DNA of 64,000 nucleotides from assembly GCF_030013595.1 (NCBI RefSeq), contig NZ_CP122768.1; one strand, written 5' to 3'. Under the pieces are notes generated by a model that worked only from the letters and a program-made list of their open reading frames with translations, was not told the origin of the DNA and ran no database searches. The position numbers and the translations under genes were made by a program. Numbering within the stretch: position 1 is the first letter of the stretch; every line of letters starts with the position of its first letter. This DNA is from Escherichia coli (GTDB taxonomy: Bacteria > Pseudomonadota > Gammaproteobacteria > Enterobacterales > Enterobacteriaceae). This document shows positions 1-51,968 of the stretch, one piece after another.

Positions 1-314
1 GTAAAAGGCTTCCAGTCAGCACCAAATCGGTACCGGCCATTACTCTGATTATCCAGTGAATCAACCACTGCTTTGCTCAACAATGCGTTGCCTTCCGTCA
101 GACTGCGCATCGTGTGGTTTGACTCCTTCCAGCCAAACATTTGCTGGAATACCGGAGAAGCAAGGAATGAGCCCGGTTTCCCACAATCAGCCCCCATTTG
201 TTGCGCGAGATGTTCACGCAGCTGCGGGTTGGTTACGCCCATGATACTGAGCGTTGCTTCAGTTGAACGAGACAACGATTGTTCAATAAGTGACGAAAAA
301 TAGCGTGTAGTCAT
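1..314 (-). CDS. Uncharacterised protein, 5' part only (continues past window start); third gene of the 3-gene operon
   Basis: Hand translation of minus strand from ATG at 314..312 gives MTTRYFSSLIEQSLSRSTEATLSIMGVTNPQLREHLAQQMG... open to the window edge; AGGA-type RBS about 8 bp upstream; starts 12 bp after the stop of the upstream gene (327). Not in the ORF track because it is truncated by the window edge. Confidence 0.6.
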   Translation of the reverse strand, partial: MTTRYFSSLIEQSLSRSTEATLSIMGVTNPQLREHLAQQMGADCGKPGSFLASPVFQQMFGWKESNHTMRSLTEGNALLSKAVVDSLDNQSNGRYRFGADWKPF

Positions 315-326
315 CCTTATTCCTTT

Positions 327-1544
327 TTATTTTTTAGCAACATAACGCAACAGGCTGCACTGAAAGATGGTCTTAAACCAGCGGGAATCGAAGTCCCTGA
401 CTTGCCTCAGGAAAAATACGGCACCGGGTTTACGGTCAAATACAGCTTCAAAAGAAGTATTTCCGCTTGCCACAGCTGCAGCGAAGACGGGTAACCAGGC
501 CACGGAATAGCGGTGATTTGCGTCAGGATTAATACCAATCACTGGATTTTTTTGTGACATCATCCATTTATACAGACGCTTGCAGCCATATTCAGGCCAG
601 CGAGCTTCACTGTGCTCACGTAAAAGCTCCTGATACCACCCGTGGACACAAGATTCAGGAATAGACGGAGGGAGATATCCGTTACTTAACCATTTCTCAA
701 TTTCATCGGCATATGTCGGGAACACGAGCCCCAGCCGTTGAAACATATTAGTAACCAGTAATTTCTGGGTTTCCTCCGGTGCACCTTTTTGGCTCAGGAA
801 CAATTTGAAACGCTCAGATGCAGCTTTGATCTCAAAGATGGGGAAAAACTCCCATAGAATAGGGAACTCATTCTCAATACGACTCAGGTACTCTGCTGAC
901 ATTTCAAATTTGAAGAGCGACATCGCCAATGCCTGCGGATGCTGCACTAGTGCACGCCATACTTCAAAGGTTGCCAGCGGTAAATAACCAAATTGATCGT
1001 ACAGGCTACGCATAAATTGCCAGCCGGAATGGGCAGGATCGTTAGCCATCTGTCCGAGAACCAGTGTGATGGTATTAACTTCTGCCTGTGGATTAAAAAG
1101 CTGGGTCGCTTTCTGCAATGAGCGGATGTTGCTTTCTTCTACCGGTAACGAAGATTCGCCACGAATGAAGCAGGGGCGAAAAGCCATCTCCTCACCCGGT
1201 TTAGGAACAACCAACCATGGCCCATTTTTGTTAACGATTGAGCTCAACTCATATTCACCGACAGGCACTCCCTCGCTCATTCTTGATGCTAAGGGGATGG
1301 ATTTCCTCTCGGGTTCACTTAACAGCATGATAACGGGGGAAGGAATCTGCCCAGCACGATGGTTCACTGACTGGCTGAGTAATAGTTCTTTTTCATAATC
1401 ATAGCGCAGGCTGTATTTATAGCGACGAATTTGCCAGGCCATGACCACACCTGCCCCCGTAATACGCATCTCAACAACCTGATCAATACCTGCCTCAAGT
1501 GAAATCAGGTTCTCAATATGTTCGCGCAGACTATAGAGATTCAA
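327..1544 (-). CDS. Uncharacterised 405-aa protein; middle gene of the 3-gene operon
   Basis: Long uninterrupted ORF in the track; 18-bp gap to the upstream gene, 12 bp to the downstream gene; no motif I recognise (no Walker A, no obvious nuclease motif). Confidence 0.7.
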   Translation of the reverse strand: MNLYSLREHIENLISLEAGIDQVVEMRITGAGVVMAWQIRRYKYSLRYDYEKELLLSQSVNHRAGQIPSPVIMLLSEPERKSIPLASRMSEGVPVGEYELSSIVNKNGPWLVVPKPGEEMAFRPCFIRGESSLPVEESNIRSLQKATQLFNPQAEVNTITLVLGQMANDPAHSGWQFMRSLYDQFGYLPLATFEVWRALVQHPQALAMSLFKFEMSAEYLSRIENEFPILWEFFPIFEIKAASERFKLFLSQKGAPEETQKLLVTNMFQRLGLVFPTYADEIEKWLSNGYLPPSIPESCVHGWYQELLREHSEARWPEYGCKRLYKWMMSQKNPVIGINPDANHRYSVAWLPVFAAAVASGNTSFEAVFDRKPGAVFFLRQVRDFDSRWFKTIFQCSLLRYVAKK

Positions 1545-1562
1545 TTCAACAGGACGATCGCT

Positions 1563-3617
1563 CTACGCCGTATAACACCATTCATGCCATGCCTGTAATC
1601 CACTAACGGAGCGCAAATACAACTGCAATGTATATTTTGTCGGCTCACCATTTCTGGAGAACAGAAACGCTCTGGAACCCAGCAGATCATGCAGCGTAAT
1701 GTTTTTATCCAGAGGACGTCCGTTTACATCAAGAGCGAGACAGCCTTTAGCGGGAAAAGGTAACTCAATGTCGATGGGGTCAGCCGCCAAATTAGGCAGA
1801 ACTTGTAATGTAATAAATGCCGGAGGTACCCCTTCCGCTTTAAGTTGTATCTCTGTTCGCCCCTCAGTACGCTTACGTGTAGCCTCCAATGTTTTATCTT
1901 TAAGTTTTGCTACACAAGGATGCTGTGTGGTGATTAAGATAGTGCCTTCATTTGCGTGCATTCCACCTTTTATCTCAATACTGAAATCAGCAGGCAAGAT
2001 ACCGATTTTGCGACGCAAGAGCGTTTCATTGTTACTATTACGGATAGAAAGATATTGAGCCCCCAGCATCTCTTGTATATGACATTGCTCAATTGAAATT
2101 CCGCTCAGGTAACGCGTTACATCAATGCTTTGAATATCCGGTAGTGTAGAAATGACTTTTGGTACACCAATAAATGTTTCATCTGGATGACAAACCCAGC
2201 TTGCACGCTTTCCATTTAGAGCAAACCTTCCGATGCTGATTTGTTCTCTTCCGGTGCGAATCCGATAAGTTTCATTTGCTGTAACTGTAACGTCCTGACA
2301 TCCCTTCACAGGTAGTGCTTTTAGTCCTAATACGTTTACTGCGCTCGATTGGCCATCAAAACCAGCAACATTGCTATTATCCCGAGGGAGTACAATCAGA
2401 ACATCGCTGCTTCGCACACTGCAAGAAGCCTGTCCCTGTAACAGCCATTGATCTGCATCAACGATGAAGGTTAACGGCACCTCACCAATGGCAATTTCAC
2501 TGTCATCAAGTTTAATGCTCCCAACAATCATCCCTCCAGCACGAGCCACTAATGACAAACCAGCCGATGGATTTTGCCTGACAAATCTCACTTCGCTTTT
2601 ACGTAATCGAACTGTTGCCTGTCTGTTTTCCAGGGAAGCATAGGCTGGCCCAAGGCCAGAGACTTCCTCACCATCTTCACAAATGGCAAGTTCAAAGCGC
2701 GTAGTTGACGGCTCGCTTGTTACAGGAAAGGAAACTTCGTCCGGAAGAGATACTATCACCCTAAGCTCATCTGGATGCTTTTCTGACCAATAGAATTGGC
2801 AACGCGTACTCTTATTTTTTTGTAGTCGAGGCTTAGCCTCTACAGAGGCTGCGCATAGCAGTCCATTCAAAAAATGCGTTCCTGTTTCATCATCTAACGG
2901 TATTGGAAACTCGCTTCGCCAGGTAGGGTGAACCTTCTCAAGCTGTTGTACTGGTTCTTTGTGATTTATTAGGTTGTGAGTAAGTACTAAGGAATTGAGG
3001 TTATCAGCCATATGACTGATAAGTTCTACAGAGGTATCTTCGCTAAAAACAGTTGGCAGCGCTGATTTTTCTATGACAGCTCTTGCCAGCGAAAGGGCAG
3101 AAAAACCTGACTGCTTTGCTTGCTCATATTGTCCAAGGATCCTGGAGAAAACAGCCAGAAAGCGACTGTCTGATTCTTTGAGTAGCCGGAAAGGTAAACC
3201 ACCTTCACTGAATAATGTTCCGAGAAAATTGCGTCGTTCAGATTCATAAAATCGAATTGGGCGCAGCCAGTAATCTTCCATCCCTTTCGGTACGATAGTA
3301 CCAAGCTCTGTGGCGGTGAATGAAATCCCTATTTTTTTATATATAGGGTCCCACGTCCATCCGCATTGCCGTTCATAATCCCTGCGGTACCACTCAGAGC
3401 AAAAAAGAACAAAACAGGCAGCAAAGTCCCTATTACATATATTAGATTGTGATTGACCGACCGCACGGAGTAGCTGCGTTAATTGGGTATATTCATCATT
3501 GGTTGCATGATATTCATAAAGAGGACGGCCATCCGGTTGTCTCAACCCTCTAAGATTCACAAAGTTACTTAGCCAGGAAGTACATTTTACCCATGAAATG
3601 TATTCTGATTGACCCAA
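1563..3617 (-). CDS. Uncharacterised 684-aa protein; first gene of the 3-gene operon, positionally equivalent to K-12 yjiT
   Basis: Long ORF next to yjiS with an AT-rich promoter region upstream (3618..4115); GC content visibly lower than neighbouring core genes; no recognisable catalytic motif. Confidence 0.7.
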   Translation of the reverse strand: MGQSEYISWVKCTSWLSNFVNLRGLRQPDGRPLYEYHATNDEYTQLTQLLRAVGQSQSNICNRDFAACFVLFCSEWYRRDYERQCGWTWDPIYKKIGISFTATELGTIVPKGMEDYWLRPIRFYESERRNFLGTLFSEGGLPFRLLKESDSRFLAVFSRILGQYEQAKQSGFSALSLARAVIEKSALPTVFSEDTSVELISHMADNLNSLVLTHNLINHKEPVQQLEKVHPTWRSEFPIPLDDETGTHFLNGLLCAASVEAKPRLQKNKSTRCQFYWSEKHPDELRVIVSLPDEVSFPVTSEPSTTRFELAICEDGEEVSGLGPAYASLENRQATVRLRKSEVRFVRQNPSAGLSLVARAGGMIVGSIKLDDSEIAIGEVPLTFIVDADQWLLQGQASCSVRSSDVLIVLPRDNSNVAGFDGQSSAVNVLGLKALPVKGCQDVTVTANETYRIRTGREQISIGRFALNGKRASWVCHPDETFIGVPKVISTLPDIQSIDVTRYLSGISIEQCHIQEMLGAQYLSIRNSNNETLLRRKIGILPADFSIEIKGGMHANEGTILITTQHPCVAKLKDKTLEATRKRTEGRTEIQLKAEGVPPAFITLQVLPNLAADPIDIELPFPAKGCLALDVNGRPLDKNITLHDLLGSRAFLFSRNGEPTKYTLQLYLRSVSGLQAWHEWCYTA

Positions 3618-4115
3618 AGCAAGCTCCTTAGAGATAAAAGATACAAAAACAAAACCCTACAATACTTCTAATTTGAAAGAAAACTTTTCAAAATATCGTA
3701 TAATTAATCAGGCGGCAACAACTAATTTTTCAGGTCGGTACTATAAATTAATTTTAGATAAAAATGATATCAACTATCTATTAATCACAACTCATTTATC
3801 ACCTGGTTTTATAATTTCAAATGAAAATAAATCTCAAACAATCAAAAAGTATGCAGTAGCTAACATTTAACTTTCCAGGATATAAAACAATTAGAGAAAC
3901 TGCACAATAGCGAATAATGAGAGTTGTAAAGTCAGTCAAAAAACACAAGTAATCAGTGTGCGTTTTTTGACCGTTATCGACATGAGTTTAAAGAGTTTAG
4001 TGAAGAAGATATTCCTGTACACTCCATACCTATTGATGAATTGTCTCGGGAAAATTTTTATAACTTAATTTAAAAACATAAAAACGTTTTATTATATATA
4101 AATCTATAACCCCCA

Positions 4116-4280
4116 TCACTCCACATCCTCCCTGCGTAACCCGATATCCTTCAACCGCTCATCACTCATCTGCTGTAACACCCGCCGGGCCTGCATTTGC
4201 CGCCGCCAACGCCTCACTGCCTGCCAGAGTTGCACAAGTCCAATAAACGGTGCTTTAGCTTTGTTTTCGTGAAATTCCAT
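4116..4280 (-). CDS. yjiS: DUF1127 small protein YjiS
   Basis: Hand translation of minus strand: MEFHENKAKAPFIGLVQLWQAVRRWRRQMQARRVLQQMSDERLKDIGLRREDVE (54 aa), typical DUF1127 sequence; divergent from yjiR as in K-12. Below the 60-aa cutoff of the ORF track. Confidence 0.8.
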   Translation of the reverse strand: MEFHENKAKAPFIGLVQLWQAVRRWRRQMQARRVLQQMSDERLKDIGLRREDVE

Positions 4281-4456
4281 CTGCTGCCTCCTCATCTTTC
4301 AGAGGCTTCATCATCCGCCTTCTGGCAGTTCACAATACAGATGCAAATATTAGTTTTATTTAACATACAGACAGGTTAAAACAGCATCTGCATCCGGTTT
4401 TTTAGCCTCATCTGTACCGGTTTTTCTCTCTGTATGGTCCAAATAAGGAATACAGC

Positions 4457-5869
4457 ATGACGCGTTATCAACATCTGGCAACTCTGCTTGCCGAGCGGAT
4501 TGAGCAAGGGCTGTATCGTCACGGGGAGAAATTGCCGTCGGTGCGCAGCTTAAGTCAGGAGCACGGCGTCAGCATCAGCACCGTGCAGCAGGCGTATCAG
4601 ACGCTGGAGACGATGAAGCTCATCACTCCGCAGCCGCGTTCGGGGTATTTTGTCGCACAACGTAAAGCCCAGCCGCCAGTGCCGCCGATGACGCGTCCGG
4701 TGCAGCGCCCGGTGGAAATTACCCAGTGGGATCAGGTGCTGGATATGCTGGAGGCGCATAGCGACAGTTCCATTGTTCCGTTAAGCAAAAGCACGCCGGA
4801 TGTCGAAACGCCCAGCCTGAAACCGCTCTGGCGGGAGCTAAGCCGGGTAGTGCAGCATAATCTGCAAACCGTTCTCGGTTATGACTTGTTAGCCGGTCAG
4901 CGGGTATTGCGCGAGCAGATTGCCCGCCTGATGCTCGACAGCGGCTCGGTAGTCACCGCCGATGACATCATCATTACCAGCGGCTGCCATAACTCGATGT
5001 CGCTGGCGTTAATGGCGGTGTGTAAACCGGGCGATATTGTCGCGGTCGAATCACCCTGTTATTACGGTTCGATGCAGATGCTGCGCGGCATGGGCGTGAA
5101 AGTGATTGAAATCCCAACCGATCCAGAAACTGGCATCAGCGTTGAAGCGCTGGAACTGGCGCTGGAACAGTGGCCGATTAAAGGCATCATTCTGGTGCCA
5201 AACTGTAATAATCCGCTGGGATTTATTATGCCGGACGCGCGCAAACGGGCCGTTCTCTCTCTCGCTCAGCGTCATGATATTGTGATTTTTGAAGATGATG
5301 TCTATGGCGAACTGGCAACGGAGTATCCGCGCCCGCGGACCATTCATTCCTGGGATATCGACGGGCGAGTGCTGTTGTGCAGCTCGTTCAGTAAAAGTAT
5401 TGCACCTGGCCTGCGTGTGGGCTGGGTCGCGCCGGGACGTTATCACGATAAACTGATGCATATGAAATACGCCATCAGCAGCTTTAATGTACCGTCCACG
5501 CAAATGGCGGCGGCAACGTTTGTGCTGGAAGGTCACTATCATCGCCATATCCGGCGGATGCGGCAGACTTATCAGCGCAATTTGGCGCTTTATACCTGCT
5601 GGATACGGGAATATTTTCCCTGCGAAATCTGTATTACGCGCCCGAAAGGCGGATTTTTACTGTGGATAGAATTGCCTGAACAGGTCGATATGGTCTGCGT
5701 CGCGCGGCAGCTGTGCCGCATGAAAATCCAGGTGGCGGCAGGCTCGATTTTCTCAGCTTCCGGCAAATACCGTAATTGTCTGCGCATCAACTGCGCTTTG
5801 CCGCTCAGCGAAACCTATCGCGAAGCACTGAAGCAAATTGGCGAGGCAGTGTATCGGGCAATGGAATGA
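4457..5869 (+). CDS. yjiR: MocR/GntR-family transcriptional regulator with aminotransferase-like domain
   Basis: 470-aa ORF; N-terminal GntR winged-helix (SVRSLSQEHGVSISTVQQAYQTLE) plus fold-type-I PLP domain. Confidence 0.9.
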   Translation: MTRYQHLATLLAERIEQGLYRHGEKLPSVRSLSQEHGVSISTVQQAYQTLETMKLITPQPRSGYFVAQRKAQPPVPPMTRPVQRPVEITQWDQVLDMLEAHSDSSIVPLSKSTPDVETPSLKPLWRELSRVVQHNLQTVLGYDLLAGQRVLREQIARLMLDSGSVVTADDIIITSGCHNSMSLALMAVCKPGDIVAVESPCYYGSMQMLRGMGVKVIEIPTDPETGISVEALELALEQWPIKGIILVPNCNNPLGFIMPDARKRAVLSLAQRHDIVIFEDDVYGELATEYPRPRTIHSWDIDGRVLLCSSFSKSIAPGLRVGWVAPGRYHDKLMHMKYAISSFNVPSTQMAAATFVLEGHYHRHIRRMRQTYQRNLALYTCWIREYFPCEICITRPKGGFLLWIELPEQVDMVCVARQLCRMKIQVAAGSIFSASGKYRNCLRINCALPLSETYREALKQIGEAVYRAME

Positions 5870-6111: not shown

Positions 6112-7032
6112 TTAGTACTCGAGCCATGAATCGTGCTCACGGTCAGGCAGGGGCTGCACTAATGCCTGTATTTGCTCTGCCGAAAGTCCGGTAATCTTTT
6201 GTATCCATTCAGGATCTACCCCATTCTGCAAAAACAATCGAAGAATGCGCTGTTCCCCTTTTATACATCCATCATTATGAATTCGCTCTGCAATTGTCAT
6301 TATTCGCTCCCTGTGGTGTGGCATTCGCCTGGTAAGTTCGCTGATAAACTTCTTAAAACGCGCTTCATCGCCAGTCAGTAAAATGTAATTTAACAGCGCG
6401 GTTATCTGGCTGTCATTAGCGCACCCTGTAACCAATAATACTGCCAGTTGATCAATAAGCCCCATTAGATCGCGCTGGCGAATATGCTTTTGGATCAACT
6501 CCAACAGGGCGACTCTGCGGTGCTGCACAATCTCGTCGTCTGGCACGACAGTGACATCCACCAGCGGGAACGCTGCAGTATAAAGCTTCCGTGCAGTAGT
6601 CGGGTCGGCAAATTCGTCCAGCCAGCACAAAGACCAGGGATAAGGACTACGGCTACCGTGATAAAACAGCATCGGGATGACCAGCGGTAGCGGCCGGCGT
6701 TTATCATGCTCGATATGGCGCTGCATCACCGCCATGGAATATCGCATCAGGCGAAAGGCCATATGGATATCCTCGCGGCTCTGATGTTCAATCACTACGT
6801 AAATATAACCATCACCTTCACGGGTCTTTACCGACCACAGAATATCGGAGTGTAGCGCCCGCAATTTTTCATCGACGAAGCTGGCGGATTCCAGTTTTAA
6901 GCTGTCGAGATCGCACAGTTCACGTAAATCTTTGGGTAAGTGGATCTCCATAAAATCCCGCGCGGTGTCAGGGTGCGTGAGAAAGGACTTAAATAATGCG
7001 TCATGCGGCGTGCTGGTCGTGAAGTTTGTCAT
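6112..7032 (-). CDS. rpnD: Rpn-family recombination-promoting nuclease (YhgA-like, PD-(D/E)xK transposase_31)
   Basis: 306-aa ORF with the family N-terminus [11 protein letters not shown]; position between yjiR and mdtM matches K-12 yjiP/yjiQ (rpnD). Intact here. Confidence 0.75.
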
Positions 7033-47608: not shown

Positions 47609-48538
47609 TTGAACAGCAGAAAATTTGCGAGCATGATCGCAATTATTTCACTGCCAGGGATATCAATGGCTTCCAGTAAATCGCTACAGCAGGCAATTGC
47701 CAATATAAAAATCTGGCACAAGGGTGAACAGCGCGCGCCGCATAAGCCATTGTTATTGCTATACGTATTAGCGGGATACCTGAATGGACATCCGCGCCTT
47801 TTCGATTATGGATCGGAAATCTACGAACCTCTGCACAGTTTACTGGAACGTTTTGGGCCACAGCGTTCACAGTACCGACCTGATATGCCGTTCTGGCGAT
47901 TACAAGGCGACGGATTCTGGCAATTACACAATGCCGAGCTTTGCTCAACAGCAGGGAGCAGCCGACAACCACCAGTGAAGGAACTGATTGAATACCACGT
48001 TGCAGGCGGTTTCGATGAACAGCACTACGCCCTGGTAACTGGCAATAAAAAACTCATCAATACTCTGGCGCAACAGATACTCGAAGCGCACTTCACCGAG
48101 AGTATTCAGGAAGAAATTGCTGACGAGCTGGGTTTTGATCTCCAGCAAATCCGTAAACAGCGCGACCCGTTATTTCGCAAAAATGTATTACGCGCTTATA
48201 AATACCAGTGCGCGATATGTGGCTTTAATATGCGCCACGACGACGCCACCGTCGCGCTTGAAGCGGCGCATATAAAATGGAAACAGCACGGCGGTCCTTG
48301 TGAAATTCCTAATGGCCTAGCGCTTTGCGCAATTCACCATAAAGCCTTTGATAAAGGATCGATTGGCCTGGACGAAAATATGCGGGTACTGGTATCAGAT
48401 GCGGTAAACGGCGGAGGGATCGTTGAGAGATTATTCTGGGATTTTGACGGGAAAACTATTGCGTTGCCGCAGGTGCGTAAAAATTACCCTTATGAGGTGT
48501 TTGTTGAGTGGCATCGGAAAGAGGTTTTTAGGGGGTGA
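47609..48538 (+). CDS. HNH-endonuclease domain protein with uncharacterised N-terminal domain (possible type IV restriction-like enzyme)
   Basis: C-terminal HNH signature CAICGF...EAAHIKWKQHGGPCEIPNGLALCAIHHKAFD; N-terminal ~200 residues unassigned. Confidence 0.65.
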   Translation: MNSRKFASMIAIISLPGISMASSKSLQQAIANIKIWHKGEQRAPHKPLLLLYVLAGYLNGHPRLFDYGSEIYEPLHSLLERFGPQRSQYRPDMPFWRLQGDGFWQLHNAELCSTAGSSRQPPVKELIEYHVAGGFDEQHYALVTGNKKLINTLAQQILEAHFTESIQEEIADELGFDLQQIRKQRDPLFRKNVLRAYKYQCAICGFNMRHDDATVALEAAHIKWKQHGGPCEIPNGLALCAIHHKAFDKGSIGLDENMRVLVSDAVNGGGIVERLFWDFDGKTIALPQVRKNYPYEVFVEWHRKEVFRG

Positions 48539-49251: not shown

Positions 49252-51207
49252 TTAATTTTTTATATTTTTACGTACAGCATTAATACTGGGCAAAGAGGAA
49301 AGATAATCTATAAACTTATCGATAGTGATTTCCCCTTCGCAACACTCAAACCCATCAATGATATTTTTCGCCATTTTTCCATTTTCATTTGTTTGATATA
49401 TCACTCCAGGTATTCGTTGAAAAAAACTAGATAATGCATATTTGTCCGCTACATATGTATCATCCACATGATATTTCCCACCGAGCATAGTTGTAGTAAC
49501 AATAAGCTTATACACACCTTTGGGTTGCCATGTTGATGGTAGTTCGAATTCTTTAATGATCACATCAAGATGATTAAGATAATGTTCAGAAATTCGATTT
49601 ATTTGTTGAAAATAAGAACGCATAAATTTATTATTATGATCATGTATTAATGAGCTATCTCCAACGATGTTACACACTTGCTGATAGTACTTACCATAAT
49701 ATATTGGTTGACCATTTGATTTTAGTTCTGTAAAAATCAAACAATCATCCAAGAGAATCACGCAATCGCACTGATAATTAGCATGAGCATCAATTGGAGA
49801 AGCTTTAATCCCCGCATCACGAACTTGTTTTATAAATTGTTGTTCATGAAATCGCCCTTTACTTGCTTGAGAAATTTTTTTGGAACCAAATAATGACATT
49901 AGAGAGCGAGTCACTGAGCTATTTGCTATTAATGCAGGCATTAAGAATAAACCGTCCATACAGGGAATAAATGGGCAATCATTAAGATCATGTGATTTTG
50001 AATTGAAGGTAAAATAATCTATCAGTTTTTTTGCTGCATCTGCTGCAATCCCCTTACGTTGAAAGAATGATAACCAACTCTCACGGCTTTTTATGATCAG
50101 CCAGCGCTCCAACTGTAGGGGTATAGGCTTTGTCGATGAAAATCTTTTGCTCATTTCTTCTTTAGATAACTCGACTAAACATTGATAAGCGTGCACCCAA
50201 TTAAATAATGATATATTCCCATATTCTTCATGAAGGTCATCAGGAGACATATTTTCTAACTCGCTTAGATGAAATGAGCTAAAAACGCCATCAGAATTTA
50301 AGTAAGATGGCATATGATCCTTTACCCAACTATTTAGATGAAAATGTTTGTTACTAAATTCATGAACTTCGCTATATAGATGTGACGCTCTCATCATTAG
50401 TCTATTTCTTGCAATCTCATAATCTCGGTATAAACAAAAACTATCAACCTCAAGAGAGTAAATGTTATTATCCAATTTTGTAAATACTGCACTACTTAGT
50501 CTGAAAAAATCTCTTACTCTGCTTAATGAGTCAAAAACATTCCACTCATTAAGGTACCCTCCCATTGAAAGCAAGGTTTGTTTATTCACACAAGAAGTTA
50601 GTTTCAATGGCCCATGAGTCCGTAAATAAGAAAATATTCTTCCGGTGTAATTGGCTACCTCATCAAATGCCCTATCGATAACTCGAAAATATTCGATATC
50701 AGGTTCAGCATGAATATTAATATTTTCAGAAACGATAAATAATGGAAAAATCCTCTTCATTTTTTTAGGATCATTGACCACAACCAAGGATGATAATGAT
50801 GATAAAAACATCTCACAAAACATGATGAGATTAAGTATTAATGCATGTGATTTTTTTGTATTTTTACGCCAAATACCAGCACATTTTGTAGCCGCAAAGA
50901 AAGAATTATTTATATCATGCATAATTTTACATTGACTCTCGAACTCAGAGATTAGTTCAATGTTATCAGGAAATGAGTTTCCTAGCTCATTAATACATTT
51001 TTTGAATGTATTGTTATACTCAACTTCAGTCTGAACTGAAAATCTATTATAATAGATGGAAGATATTCTTAGCACATCCAAGGCGATATCTATACTAATA
51101 TCATCTCTTTTTATGTACTCACAAAAAAAAGAACAAAACTGTTTCGGGTCGTTAGCAAGATTACTAATTCTAGTGGTATCATAAACTTTTTCCATTTTTC
51201 CATACAT
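49252..51207 (-). CDS. Uncharacterised low-GC 651-aa protein at the leuX islet
   Basis: Long ORF in strongly AT-rich DNA immediately 3' of tRNA-Leu (leuX); possible PD-(D/E)xK-like motif (CDCVILLDDCLIFTELK) near residue 480; otherwise no recognisable domain. Confidence 0.7.
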   Translation of the reverse strand: MYGKMEKVYDTTRISNLANDPKQFCSFFCEYIKRDDISIDIALDVLRISSIYYNRFSVQTEVEYNNTFKKCINELGNSFPDNIELISEFESQCKIMHDINNSFFAATKCAGIWRKNTKKSHALILNLIMFCEMFLSSLSSLVVVNDPKKMKRIFPLFIVSENINIHAEPDIEYFRVIDRAFDEVANYTGRIFSYLRTHGPLKLTSCVNKQTLLSMGGYLNEWNVFDSLSRVRDFFRLSSAVFTKLDNNIYSLEVDSFCLYRDYEIARNRLMMRASHLYSEVHEFSNKHFHLNSWVKDHMPSYLNSDGVFSSFHLSELENMSPDDLHEEYGNISLFNWVHAYQCLVELSKEEMSKRFSSTKPIPLQLERWLIIKSRESWLSFFQRKGIAADAAKKLIDYFTFNSKSHDLNDCPFIPCMDGLFLMPALIANSSVTRSLMSLFGSKKISQASKGRFHEQQFIKQVRDAGIKASPIDAHANYQCDCVILLDDCLIFTELKSNGQPIYYGKYYQQVCNIVGDSSLIHDHNNKFMRSYFQQINRISEHYLNHLDVIIKEFELPSTWQPKGVYKLIVTTTMLGGKYHVDDTYVADKYALSSFFQRIPGVIYQTNENGKMAKNIIDGFECCEGEITIDKFIDYLSSLPSINAVRKNIKN

Positions 51208-51883: not shown

Positions 51884-51968
51884 TGGTGCCGAAGGCCGGA
51901 CTCGAACCGGCACGTATTTCTACGGTTGATTTTGAATCAACTGCGTCTACCGATTTCGCCACTTCGGC
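51884..51968 (-). tRNA. leuX: tRNA-Leu (anticodon CAA), leuX
   Basis: Reverse complement of 51884..51968 is GCCGAAGTGGCGAAATCGGTAGACGCAGTTGATTCAAAATCAACCGTAGAAATACGTGCCGGTTCGAGTCCGGCCTTCGGCACCA, with wild-type CAA anticodon and encoded CCA end. Confidence 0.95.

What the first reader, a model, noticed from the sequence alone, without database searches (positions are those of the whole stretch)
1..4115. Uncharacterised three-gene operon in the yjiS-proximal defence-island hotspot
Three minus-strand genes (684 aa, 405 aa, and a third starting at 314 and running off the window) are packed with 18-bp and 12-bp gaps behind an AT-rich ~500-bp leader, and are transcribed away from yjiS. None contains a motif I can assign (no Walker A, HNH, PLD, methylase or helicase signature in the visible parts). 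The position is the edge of the E. coli immigration-control region, where K-12 carries yjiT/yjiV, mcrBC and hsd, and which is a well-known variable locus for anti-phage systems. GC content is visibly below that of the flanking core genes. Tight coupling, accessory location and lack of known domains make this the strongest candidate for an undescribed multi-gene system, plausibly defensive.
Basis: partly seen in the sequence, partly recalled or inferred. Interest (0 to 1): 0.8.

Follow-up and report, generated by a model that had tools for sequence, protein, structure and literature searches.

The report
Druantia III with broken druH gene
The supposed new three-gene operon is the known two-gene anti-phage system Druantia type III (druH-druE, the full-length form of E. 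coli yjiT/yjiV), and its first gene is cut in two by a single premature stop codon, so it is ordinary and probably inactive in this strain.

Summary
The ORFs, the 18- and 12-nt gaps, the AT-rich 498-bp leader and the lower GC are all present as described. The 684-aa and 405-aa ORFs are one gene: they share a frame and are separated by one TAG. The closest relatives read TTG (Leu685) there and annotate a single 1096-aa YjiT. PADLOC assigns both pieces to one DruH profile (positions 1-684 and 691-1099 of 1100) and the third ORF to the DruE N-terminus. NCBIfam assigns the first two to YjiT_fam. Related genomes show a 2113-aa DruE followed by mcrBC-hsd, and K-12 yjiT/yjiV are deletion remnants of this locus. 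Druantia III has a published mechanism and solved structures. Both proteins are required, and the DruH C-terminal part, which is needed for defence, lies beyond the stop. The stop is real: identical alleles occur in about 24 draft or SRA contigs. It is absent from 5,426 complete genomes and is recent, with 3 substitutions in 9.6 kb against an intact relative. Other lineages carry independent lesions in the same gene. Verdict: a known defence system with druH pseudogenised; low interest.

The parts
1566..3617 (-). druH (yjiT) codons 1-684: N-terminal helical domain plus most of the Ig-like array. It is called as a separate 684-aa ORF only because of the stop that follows.
   Evidence: PADLOC PDLC00049 DruH3 positions 1-684 of 1100, E=0. 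NCBIfam NF038336 YjiT_fam positions 1-678 of 1090, 754 bits. Pfam YjiT_N + YjiT_2nd. The same start (TTG at 3617) is annotated in relatives.
1563..1565 (-). Premature amber stop (TAG) at druH codon 685. Intact alleles read TTG (Leu). The change is one transversion at window position 1564.
   Evidence: The TAG 30-mer gives 0 hits and the TTG 30-mer hits 176 complete genomes at 100%. The TAG is present in L004-L011.
327..1562 (-). druH (yjiT) codons 686-1096 and the natural stop: the last Ig-like domain(s) and the C-terminal helical domain. The 405-aa ORF is listed from the TTG at 1544.
   Evidence: PADLOC PDLC00049 positions 691-1099 of 1100, E=1.6e-209. NCBIfam YjiT_fam positions 687-1090 of 1090. 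It is in frame with the upstream piece. There is no Shine-Dalgarno sequence before the TTG at 1544.
1..314 (-). 5' end of druE (orthologue of the K-12 yjiV pseudogene). The first 104 codons of a 2113-codon helicase-nuclease gene are visible; the rest runs off the window.
   Evidence: PADLOC DruE3 PDLC00035, E=2.3e-37. It is identical to L001 and to the carriers, where the ORF is 2113 aa with DEAD, YjiV_N, Helicase_C and MZB domains. It matches PDB 9tu7 DruE at E=0.
3618..4115 (-). AT-rich intergenic leader between yjiS and druH; presumed promoter region of the druHE operon.
   Evidence: GC is 0.316 in window 3501-4000. One weak sigma-70-like site lies at 3780..3751, which is fewer than in shuffles, and no terminator was found. 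There is no Rfam family. The function of this region is inferred, not shown.
4116..4280 (-). yjiS (DUF1127), a conserved flanking gene on the same strand. It is context only and not part of the system.
   Evidence: Annotation in relatives and in K-12.

Best explanation
The region is a type III Druantia anti-phage locus (druH followed by druE) at the yjiS side of the E. coli immigration control region. It is the full-length version of what survives in K-12 as yjiT and the yjiV pseudogene.

The published mechanism for the family is as follows. [quoted passage not shown] It binds or processes single-stranded or forked phage DNA and, through its C-terminal domain, engages DruE. DruE is a large YprA-like helicase-nuclease that unwinds and degrades phage replication intermediates without killing the cell.

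In this strain a single TTG-to-TAG change at druH codon 685 splits the gene into the 684-aa and 405-aa ORFs. The stop falls inside a beta-sandwich domain. It detaches the part of DruH that carries the C-terminal half of the ssDNA/ATP pocket and the DruE-contacting domain.

The most likely state is therefore a recently pseudogenised druH and a non-functional Druantia system, with druE still intact only because too little time has passed for it to decay.

Shown here: the identity of the genes, the single-base lesion, its inheritance in a clone, and its position in the fold model. Inferred: loss of function.
For: - **Family assignment.** PADLOC DruH3 and DruE3 profiles match collinearly across the stop, as does NCBIfam YjiT_fam. 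A profile of homologues hits PDB DruH 9tud at E=4e-41 over positions 14-944. hhalign against Sakai ECs_5259 gives probability 99.7. DruE matches 9tu7 at E=0 and is 33% identical over its full length to Sakai DruE.
- **One gene, not two.** The two ORFs share a frame. Relatives at 99.6-99.9% identity have one 1096-aa CDS with TTG at that codon. All 120 listed homologues with at least 94% query coverage are single proteins of about 1063-1117 aa.
- **Context.** druE (2113 aa), mcrC, mcrB, symE and hsd follow in relatives and in carriers. K-12 yjiT/yjiV equal this locus minus 3.0-kb and 2.2-kb deletions.
- **The lesion is real.** The exact 684-aa and 405-aa products occur on 14 and 17 contigs. 24 contigs from NCBI and SRA projects carry the allele, and the 8 fetched loci all have the TAG and are identical to the window over 3617 nt.
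- **The lesion is recent.** Carriers differ from intact L001 by only 3-4 substitutions in 9645 nt.
- **Functional consequence.** Both genes are required for defence. [quoted passage not shown] The DruH C-terminal domain contacts the DruE stalk. The AF2 model places codon 685 at the end of strand 677-685, with strand 690-693 following.
- **Recurrent decay of the same gene.** There is a 1-nt deletion at codon 619 in another lineage and an IS truncation in a third. K-12 has deletions, and one genome has an IS100 insertion (H6).
Against: - Loss of function was not tested.
- druE is intact in every carrier, although with 3-4 substitutions of divergence this carries no weight either way.
- A start codon (TTG) lies 18 nt after the stop, and an ATG at 1442 has a G-rich stretch upstream, so a separately translated C-terminal piece is conceivable.
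- Low-level amber readthrough, or a suppressor tRNA elsewhere in the genome, cannot be excluded.
- The experimentally studied systems are a divergent subtype (DruH about 22% and DruE 33% identical). The mechanism and the residue requirements are therefore transferred by homology. The exact counterparts of R1031, H1062, R1064 and K1067 could not be aligned.
- The mechanism papers are mostly 2026 preprints and disagree on details: whether DruH is an ssDNA binder, a 3'-5' exonuclease or a dimer-dependent nickase, and whether the DruH-DruE complex is stable.
Confidence: 0.82

Rival explanations
1. Split but functional. The 684-aa N-fragment and a C-fragment re-initiated just after the stop (TTG at 1544 or ATG at 1442) are both made and reassemble non-covalently into a working DruH, so the system still defends.
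For: Start codons lie 18 and 120 nt after the stop, and the ATG at 1442 is preceded by GGGGGCAGG. DruH N- and C-terminal domains contact each other extensively in the solved structures. druE is intact in all carriers.
Against: There is no Shine-Dalgarno sequence before the TTG at 1544. The break lies inside a predicted beta-sandwich, not in a linker, and starting at the ATG would drop 34 more residues. No natural two-gene DruH appears among 120 homologues; shorter entries are partial or lesion products. The intact druE is uninformative at 3-4 substitutions of divergence.
Confidence: 0.07
2. Readthrough or suppression. The amber codon is read through, either by a suppressor tRNA elsewhere in the genome or by near-cognate decoding, giving enough full-length DruH for defence.
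For: The lesion is a single UAG, so any amber suppressor would give a full-length protein. The ancestral residue is Leu at a poorly conserved column of the family alignment, so most inserted residues would probably be tolerated.
Against: The only tRNA gene in the window, leuX, has its normal CAA anticodon and is not the supP suppressor. Amber suppressors are uncommon in natural isolates, and spontaneous UAG readthrough in E. coli is low (general knowledge, not tested here). The rest of the genome was not available.
Confidence: 0.06
3. Sequencing or assembly artefact. The gene is really intact, and the stop is an error in this assembly.
For: None of 5,426 complete RefSeq genomes carries the TAG.
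Against: The identical allele is present in 24 contigs from two NCBI assemblies and several independent SRA/ERA runs, and the 8 loci fetched all show TAG. The change is a transversion in non-repetitive sequence. Carriers differ elsewhere, with mcrC intact or split and one druE SNP, so they are not one data set.
Confidence: 0.02
4. One reading: an undescribed three-gene defence system with no known domains.
For: Pfam-A as installed gives no hit for the protein. No classical catalytic motif is visible in the window.
Against: Full-length, collinear matches to the DruH and DruE profiles and to NCBIfam YjiT_fam. Newer Pfam families YjiT_N, YjiT_2nd and YjiV_N exist. There are solved structures and published mechanisms. 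Two of the 'three genes' are one gene.
Confidence: 0.01

Closest known systems
E. coli K-12 yjiT / yjiV (immigration control region)
   Same: Same chromosomal locus and orthologous DNA at 96-98% identity, lying between yjiS and mcrC. NCBIfam and Pfam name the families after these genes (YjiT_fam, YjiT_N, YjiV_N).
   Different: K-12 has lost about 3.0 kb (the 3' half of druH plus the 5' end of druE) and about 2.2 kb inside druE. The window has the full-length locus with a single nonsense codon instead.
Druantia type III of E. coli ATCC 8739 / NCTC12923 / EDL933 / Sakai (ECs_5259-ECs_5260, leuX island SpLE6/OI-172). This is the experimentally and structurally characterised system (PDB 9tud DruH, 9tu7 DruE).
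   Same: The same two-gene druH-druE architecture, protein sizes (1096/2113 aa against 1119/2104 aa) and domain order. Homology is full-length: DruE is 33% identical with conserved helicase motifs, and DruH aligns with hhalign probability 99.7 over about 930 columns. The predicted DruH fold has the same layout of helical NTD, Ig-like array and helical CTD.
   Different: It is a divergent subtype: DruH is only about 22% identical and belongs to a different PADLOC profile (PDLC00049 against PDLC00047). It sits at a different chromosomal site, the ICR next to yjiS, not the leuX island flanked by Zorya II and ARMADA II. I found no paper that states it tested this ICR-type variant. Here druH is also interrupted.
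Druantia type III of Pseudomonas aeruginosa and Mycolicibacterium smegmatis
   Same: A two-component DruH-DruE system in which both genes are required. DruH has the NTD, six Ig-like domains and a CTD. DruE is a helicase-nuclease.
   Different: These are distant orthologues with a different phage spectrum. They were not compared residue by residue here.
Druantia types I, II and IV
   Same: They share the DruE helicase core. Window-type DruE hits the DruE1, DruE2 and DruE4 profiles over residues ~1105-1731.
   Different: Those types pair DruE with DruABCD, DruMFG and so on. None of these is present here, and the partner is DruH.

Membership tests
Druantia type III (DruH + DruE) | A DruE protein: about 2000-aa YprA-like DEAD/DEAH helicase with an MZB (DUF1998) domain. 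| tested here: met
   The visible 104 aa match PADLOC DruE3 at 2.3e-37. The same gene in identical-allele carriers and in relatives is 2113 aa, with DruE3 PDLC00037 at E=0 over 1-2109 and Pfam DEAD, YjiV_N, Helicase_C and MZB. It matches PDB DruE 9tu7 at E=0. Only the first 314 nt lie in the window itself.
Druantia type III (DruH + DruE) | A DruH protein (about 1100 aa, YjiT family) encoded immediately upstream of druE on the same strand. | tested here: met
   PADLOC DruH3 PDLC00049 covers positions 1-684 and 691-1099 of 1100 with the two ORFs. NCBIfam YjiT_fam scores 754 and 485 bits against a cutoff of 150. There is a 12-nt gap to druE.
Druantia type III (DruH + DruE) | No other Druantia accessory genes (DruA-D, DruM/F/G); a two-gene operon. 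| tested here: met
   In relatives and carriers the neighbours are yjiS upstream and mcrC (convergent) downstream.
Druantia type III (DruH + DruE) | DruH architecture: N-terminal helical domain, array of Ig-like domains, C-terminal helical domain. | tested here: met
   The AF2 model of the intact allele (pLDDT 76.9) has helices in 1-258, beta domains in 272-818 and helices in 834-1095. Foldseek finds tandem Ig/FnIII ectodomains. Solved DruH was not in that structure library, so there is no direct structural superposition; sequence-profile homology to 9tud is E=4e-41.
Druantia type III (DruH + DruE) | Both ORFs intact (a functional system as scored by PADLOC or DefenseFinder). | tested here: not met
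   druH carries TAG at codon 685. The locus is therefore a member by descent and a probable pseudogene by state.
Druantia type III (DruH + DruE) | Conservation of the DruH residues shown to matter in the studied system (R1031, H1062, R1064, K1067 pocket; N-terminal cleft R22/K28/E64 of PaDruH). | tested here: inconclusive
   The N-terminal region is strongly conserved (R23, D29, R31 and E75 are invariant in A1). The last ~150 residues could not be aligned reliably to the studied type. Only PADLOC PDLC00047 collinearity (ORF2 3-394 against 718-1105 of 1118) places them downstream of the stop.
Druantia type III (DruH + DruE) | Anti-phage activity that depends on both genes. | not testable with these tools
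   Shown for the ATCC 8739, P. aeruginosa and M. smegmatis systems. It was not shown, in the papers I read, for the ICR-type variant or for this allele.

The most novel reading that the evidence does not exclude
The amber-split druH is not dead. Either the two fragments (or a read-through product) still support defence, or the 684-aa fragment, which carries the putative exonuclease cleft and the Ig-like domains but lacks the DruE-binding and ATP/ssDNA-pocket domain, has a separate or dominant-negative activity that was selected in this clone. Separately, the ICR-resident YjiT-type Druantia III (22%/33% identical to the studied E. coli system) may have a different trigger or phage range.
Probability: 0.07. 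Interest if true: 0.35.

Novelty: already known. Interest (0 to 1): 0.1.

Why it matters
It matters little for discovery, because the locus is a textbook hit for existing defence-system annotators. There are three modest points of value.
- It shows explicitly that K-12 yjiT/yjiV are deletion remnants of a Druantia III operon.
- It shows that this ICR-resident subtype is repeatedly inactivated in E. coli by independent events: nonsense, frameshift, IS insertion and deletion. That is relevant to how defence systems are gained and lost.
- It is a caution for ORF-based scans. Two tightly 'coupled' ORFs in the same frame should first be tested as one broken gene.

Tried and rejected
- **Pfam-A scan of the intact DruH** gave no hit even at E<=10. 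The installed library predates YjiT_N/YjiT_2nd, which appear only in precomputed annotations.
- **phmmer of the 405-aa piece against the PDB** found nothing meaningful.
- **A profile of the last 260 residues** also failed to reach 9tud, so the pocket residues R1031, H1062, R1064 and K1067 could not be mapped one to one.
- **mafft --add of the Sakai DruH into the family alignment** gave a register inconsistent with HMMER and hhalign, and I discarded it.
- **Foldseek against the PDB** returned only generic tandem Ig/FnIII receptors at low TM scores. The library copy ends in April 2026 and evidently lacks the DruH entries.
- **Rfam scan of 1-4500** gave only sub-threshold snoRNA noise near yjiS.
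- **Promoter and terminator scan of the leader** found one weak site, fewer than in shuffles, and no terminator, so no promoter is claimed.
- **leuX as a possible supP amber suppressor** was rejected, because the anticodon is CAA.
- **A possible flaw in the 61-mer test** (TAG plus a second SNP would also score 98.4%) was closed with 30-mer queries and a positive control.
- **An intact druE as evidence of retained function** was considered and rejected, because carriers are only 3-4 substitutions from an intact relative.
Full report
**Observation**

The three minus-strand ORFs exist at the stated coordinates: 3617..1563 (684 aa), 1544..327 (405 aa) and 314..<1 (104 codons visible). The gaps are 18 and 12 nt. 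The 498-bp region between yjiS and the first ORF is AT-rich, with GC 0.316 in window 3501-4000. The ORFs run at 42-49% GC against 52-59% for yjiR.

Translating 3617..1 in one frame gives 684 codons, one TAG, six codons, and then the 405-aa ORF without any shift.

**Identity**

- Against PADLOC, ORF1 matches DruH profile PDLC00049 at positions 1-684 of 1100 (E=0). ORF2 matches the same profile at positions 691-1099 (E=1.6e-209). The truncated third ORF matches the first ~104 positions of DruE type III profiles (E=2.3e-37).
- NCBIfam gives the same picture with NF038336 'YjiT_fam / STY4851/ECs_5259 family' (positions 1-678 and 687-1090 of 1090), far above the curated cutoff.
- 223 of 5,426 complete E. 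coli genomes carry at least 80% of window 1-4300.
- The two closest genomes I opened (99.9% and 99.6% identity) annotate a single 3291-nt yjiT CDS at exactly window 327..3617. It is followed by a 6342-nt DEAD/DEAH helicase gene, then mcrC, mcrB, symE and hsd. That helicase (2113 aa) matches DruE3 end to end and matches PDB chains deposited as DruE (9tu7, E=0).
- Homologues of the intact protein across Enterobacterales, Pseudomonas, methanotrophs and others are uniformly single proteins of about 1095-1117 aa.

**The lesion**

The window differs from the nearest intact relative at three positions in the 3.6 kb of druH. One is T for A at 1564, which turns TTG (Leu685) into TAG.

A 30-mer centred on the stop finds no complete E. 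coli genome. The TTG version of the same 30-mer finds 176 genomes at 100%.

The stop is nevertheless not an error:
- The exact 684-aa and 405-aa products are on record on 14 and 17 contigs.
- 24 contigs from two NCBI assemblies and several unrelated SRA/ERA runs encode the 684-aa product.
- The eight loci fetched all carry TAG, are identical to the window over 3617 nt, and encode an intact 2113-aa DruE.
- They differ from one another by one druE SNP and by mcrC being intact or split, so they are separate isolates of one clone.
- They differ from the intact relative by only 3-4 substitutions in 9645 nt. The mutation is therefore recent, and the intactness of druE says nothing about selection.

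**Relation to K-12**

Aligning the MG1655 yjiS-mcrC interval to the intact locus gives three collinear blocks at 96-98% identity, with about 3.0 kb and 2.2 kb missing. K-12 yjiT is thus the 5' half of druH, and the yjiV pseudogene is the remains of druE. The window does not carry something in place of yjiT/yjiV; it carries their full-length form.

**What is known about the system**

Druantia type III is no longer uncharacterised.
- Both genes are required for defence in the E. coli ATCC 8739 system (10.64898/2026.05.13.724758) and in the P. aeruginosa system (10.64898/2026.05.13.724313).
- DruH was explicitly assigned to the YjiT family of the immigration control region (PMC13192584).
[quoted passage not shown] It binds ssDNA in a pocket between Ig5 and the C-terminal domain that ATP competes for. 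[quoted passage not shown]
- In the Pseudomonas system DruH is reported as a 3'-5' exonuclease with an N-terminal cleft. Its C-terminal helical domain contacts the DruE stalk, releasing the autoinhibited DruE dimer onto forked DNA.
- The papers disagree on details, and most are preprints.

**Position of the stop in the protein**

- A 23-sequence profile of the window-type DruH aligns collinearly with solved DruH 9tud (E=4.2e-41, positions 14-944 against 12-957). It also aligns with Sakai ECs_5259 (hhalign probability 99.7). ECs_5259 carries exactly the residues named in the papers.
- In these alignments codon 685 corresponds to about residue 690-699 of the studied protein. Y733, D735, R1031, H1062, R1064 and K1067 therefore fall in the detached 405-aa piece. 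The last four are placed there only by collinearity with PADLOC PDLC00047, because direct alignment of the extreme C-terminus failed.
- An AlphaFold2 model of the intact allele (pLDDT 76.9) reproduces the architecture of helical NTD, Ig-like array and helical CTD. It puts residue 685 at the end of strand 677-685, with strand 690-693 of the same beta domain following. The cut is inside a folded domain, not in a linker.
- There is no Shine-Dalgarno sequence before the TTG at 1544.

**Subtype**

The window-type system is a divergent subtype relative to the studied E. coli one. That system sits in the leuX island SpLE6/OI-172 next to Zorya II and ARMADA II. DruH is about 22% identical and DruE 33% identical between the two. 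I found no paper stating that the ICR-type variant itself was tested. The mechanism is therefore transferred by homology.

**Recurrent decay**

The same gene is broken independently elsewhere:
- a 1-nt deletion at codon 619 giving 630 + 433 aa in another allele (indexed in 42 blocks of the collection);
- an IS3-family insertion truncating the 5' 1.9 kb in a third genome;
- IS100 inside yjiT in strain 2012C-4221;
- the K-12 deletions.

PADLOC even holds separate profiles for C-terminal DruH fragments (PDLC00042 and PDLC00043).

**Verdict**

This is a known two-gene defence system, Druantia type III, at its known E. coli location. druH was recently inactivated by an amber mutation in a small clone.

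The residual uncertainty is whether the split gene retains any activity through re-initiation or readthrough. I rate that unlikely, at about 0.13 combined. Interest is low.

Noticed in passing
window 49252..51207 (-), next to leuX tRNA-Leu(CAA) at 51884..51968 (-): A 651-aa ORF in the leuX integration hotspot has no NCBIfam and no PADLOC match at E<=1e-3. It sits beside a defence gene and may deserve its own look.
   Followed up: partly
window 47609..48538 (+): A 309-aa ORF matches NF045808, 'phosphorothioated DNA-binding restriction endonuclease' (439 bits), and PADLOC HNH profiles. This is a second, known-type defence gene in the window. In the relative NZ_CP062824 the same leuX site holds a larger island with an extra HNH endonuclease, a JetD-domain protein, a 1478-aa hypothetical protein, a WYL protein and an integrase remnant.
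   Followed up: partly
L016/L017 4013..7302; L018 5000..7302; hit H6 (NZ_CP027437): There are independent inactivations of the same ICR-type druH in other E. coli lineages: a 1-nt deletion at codon 619 (630 + 433 aa), an IS3-family truncation, and an IS100 insertion. This suggests the subtype is frequently lost.
   Followed up: partly
L005, L009, L010 (mcrC region, e.g. L005 19702..20747): Some carriers of the druH amber allele also have mcrC split into 108-aa and 222-aa ORFs, while others have an intact 348-aa mcrC. A second immigration-control gene is being lost within the same clone.
   Followed up: no
window 6112..7032 (-): The Rpn-family recombination-promoting nuclease gene (rpnD) is an intact 306-aa ORF here and in relatives, whereas K-12 annotates rpnD as a pseudogene.
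   Followed up: no
window ~4278 (yjiS 5' end); L001 16289..17517: The closest complete genome (HCP5S3_I2) has an IS3-family element inserted at the start of yjiS, exactly where its similarity to the window ends. Several other close relatives also have IS3 insertions within the 4.3-kb interval.
   Followed up: no
protein P0117: A 921-aa E. coli protein cluster (229 members) is 98% identical to the query over 40% of the query length and combines the YjiT_N and YjiT_2nd domains with MZB (PF09369). It looks like an in-frame DruH-DruE fusion created by a deletion of the K-12 kind.
   Followed up: no
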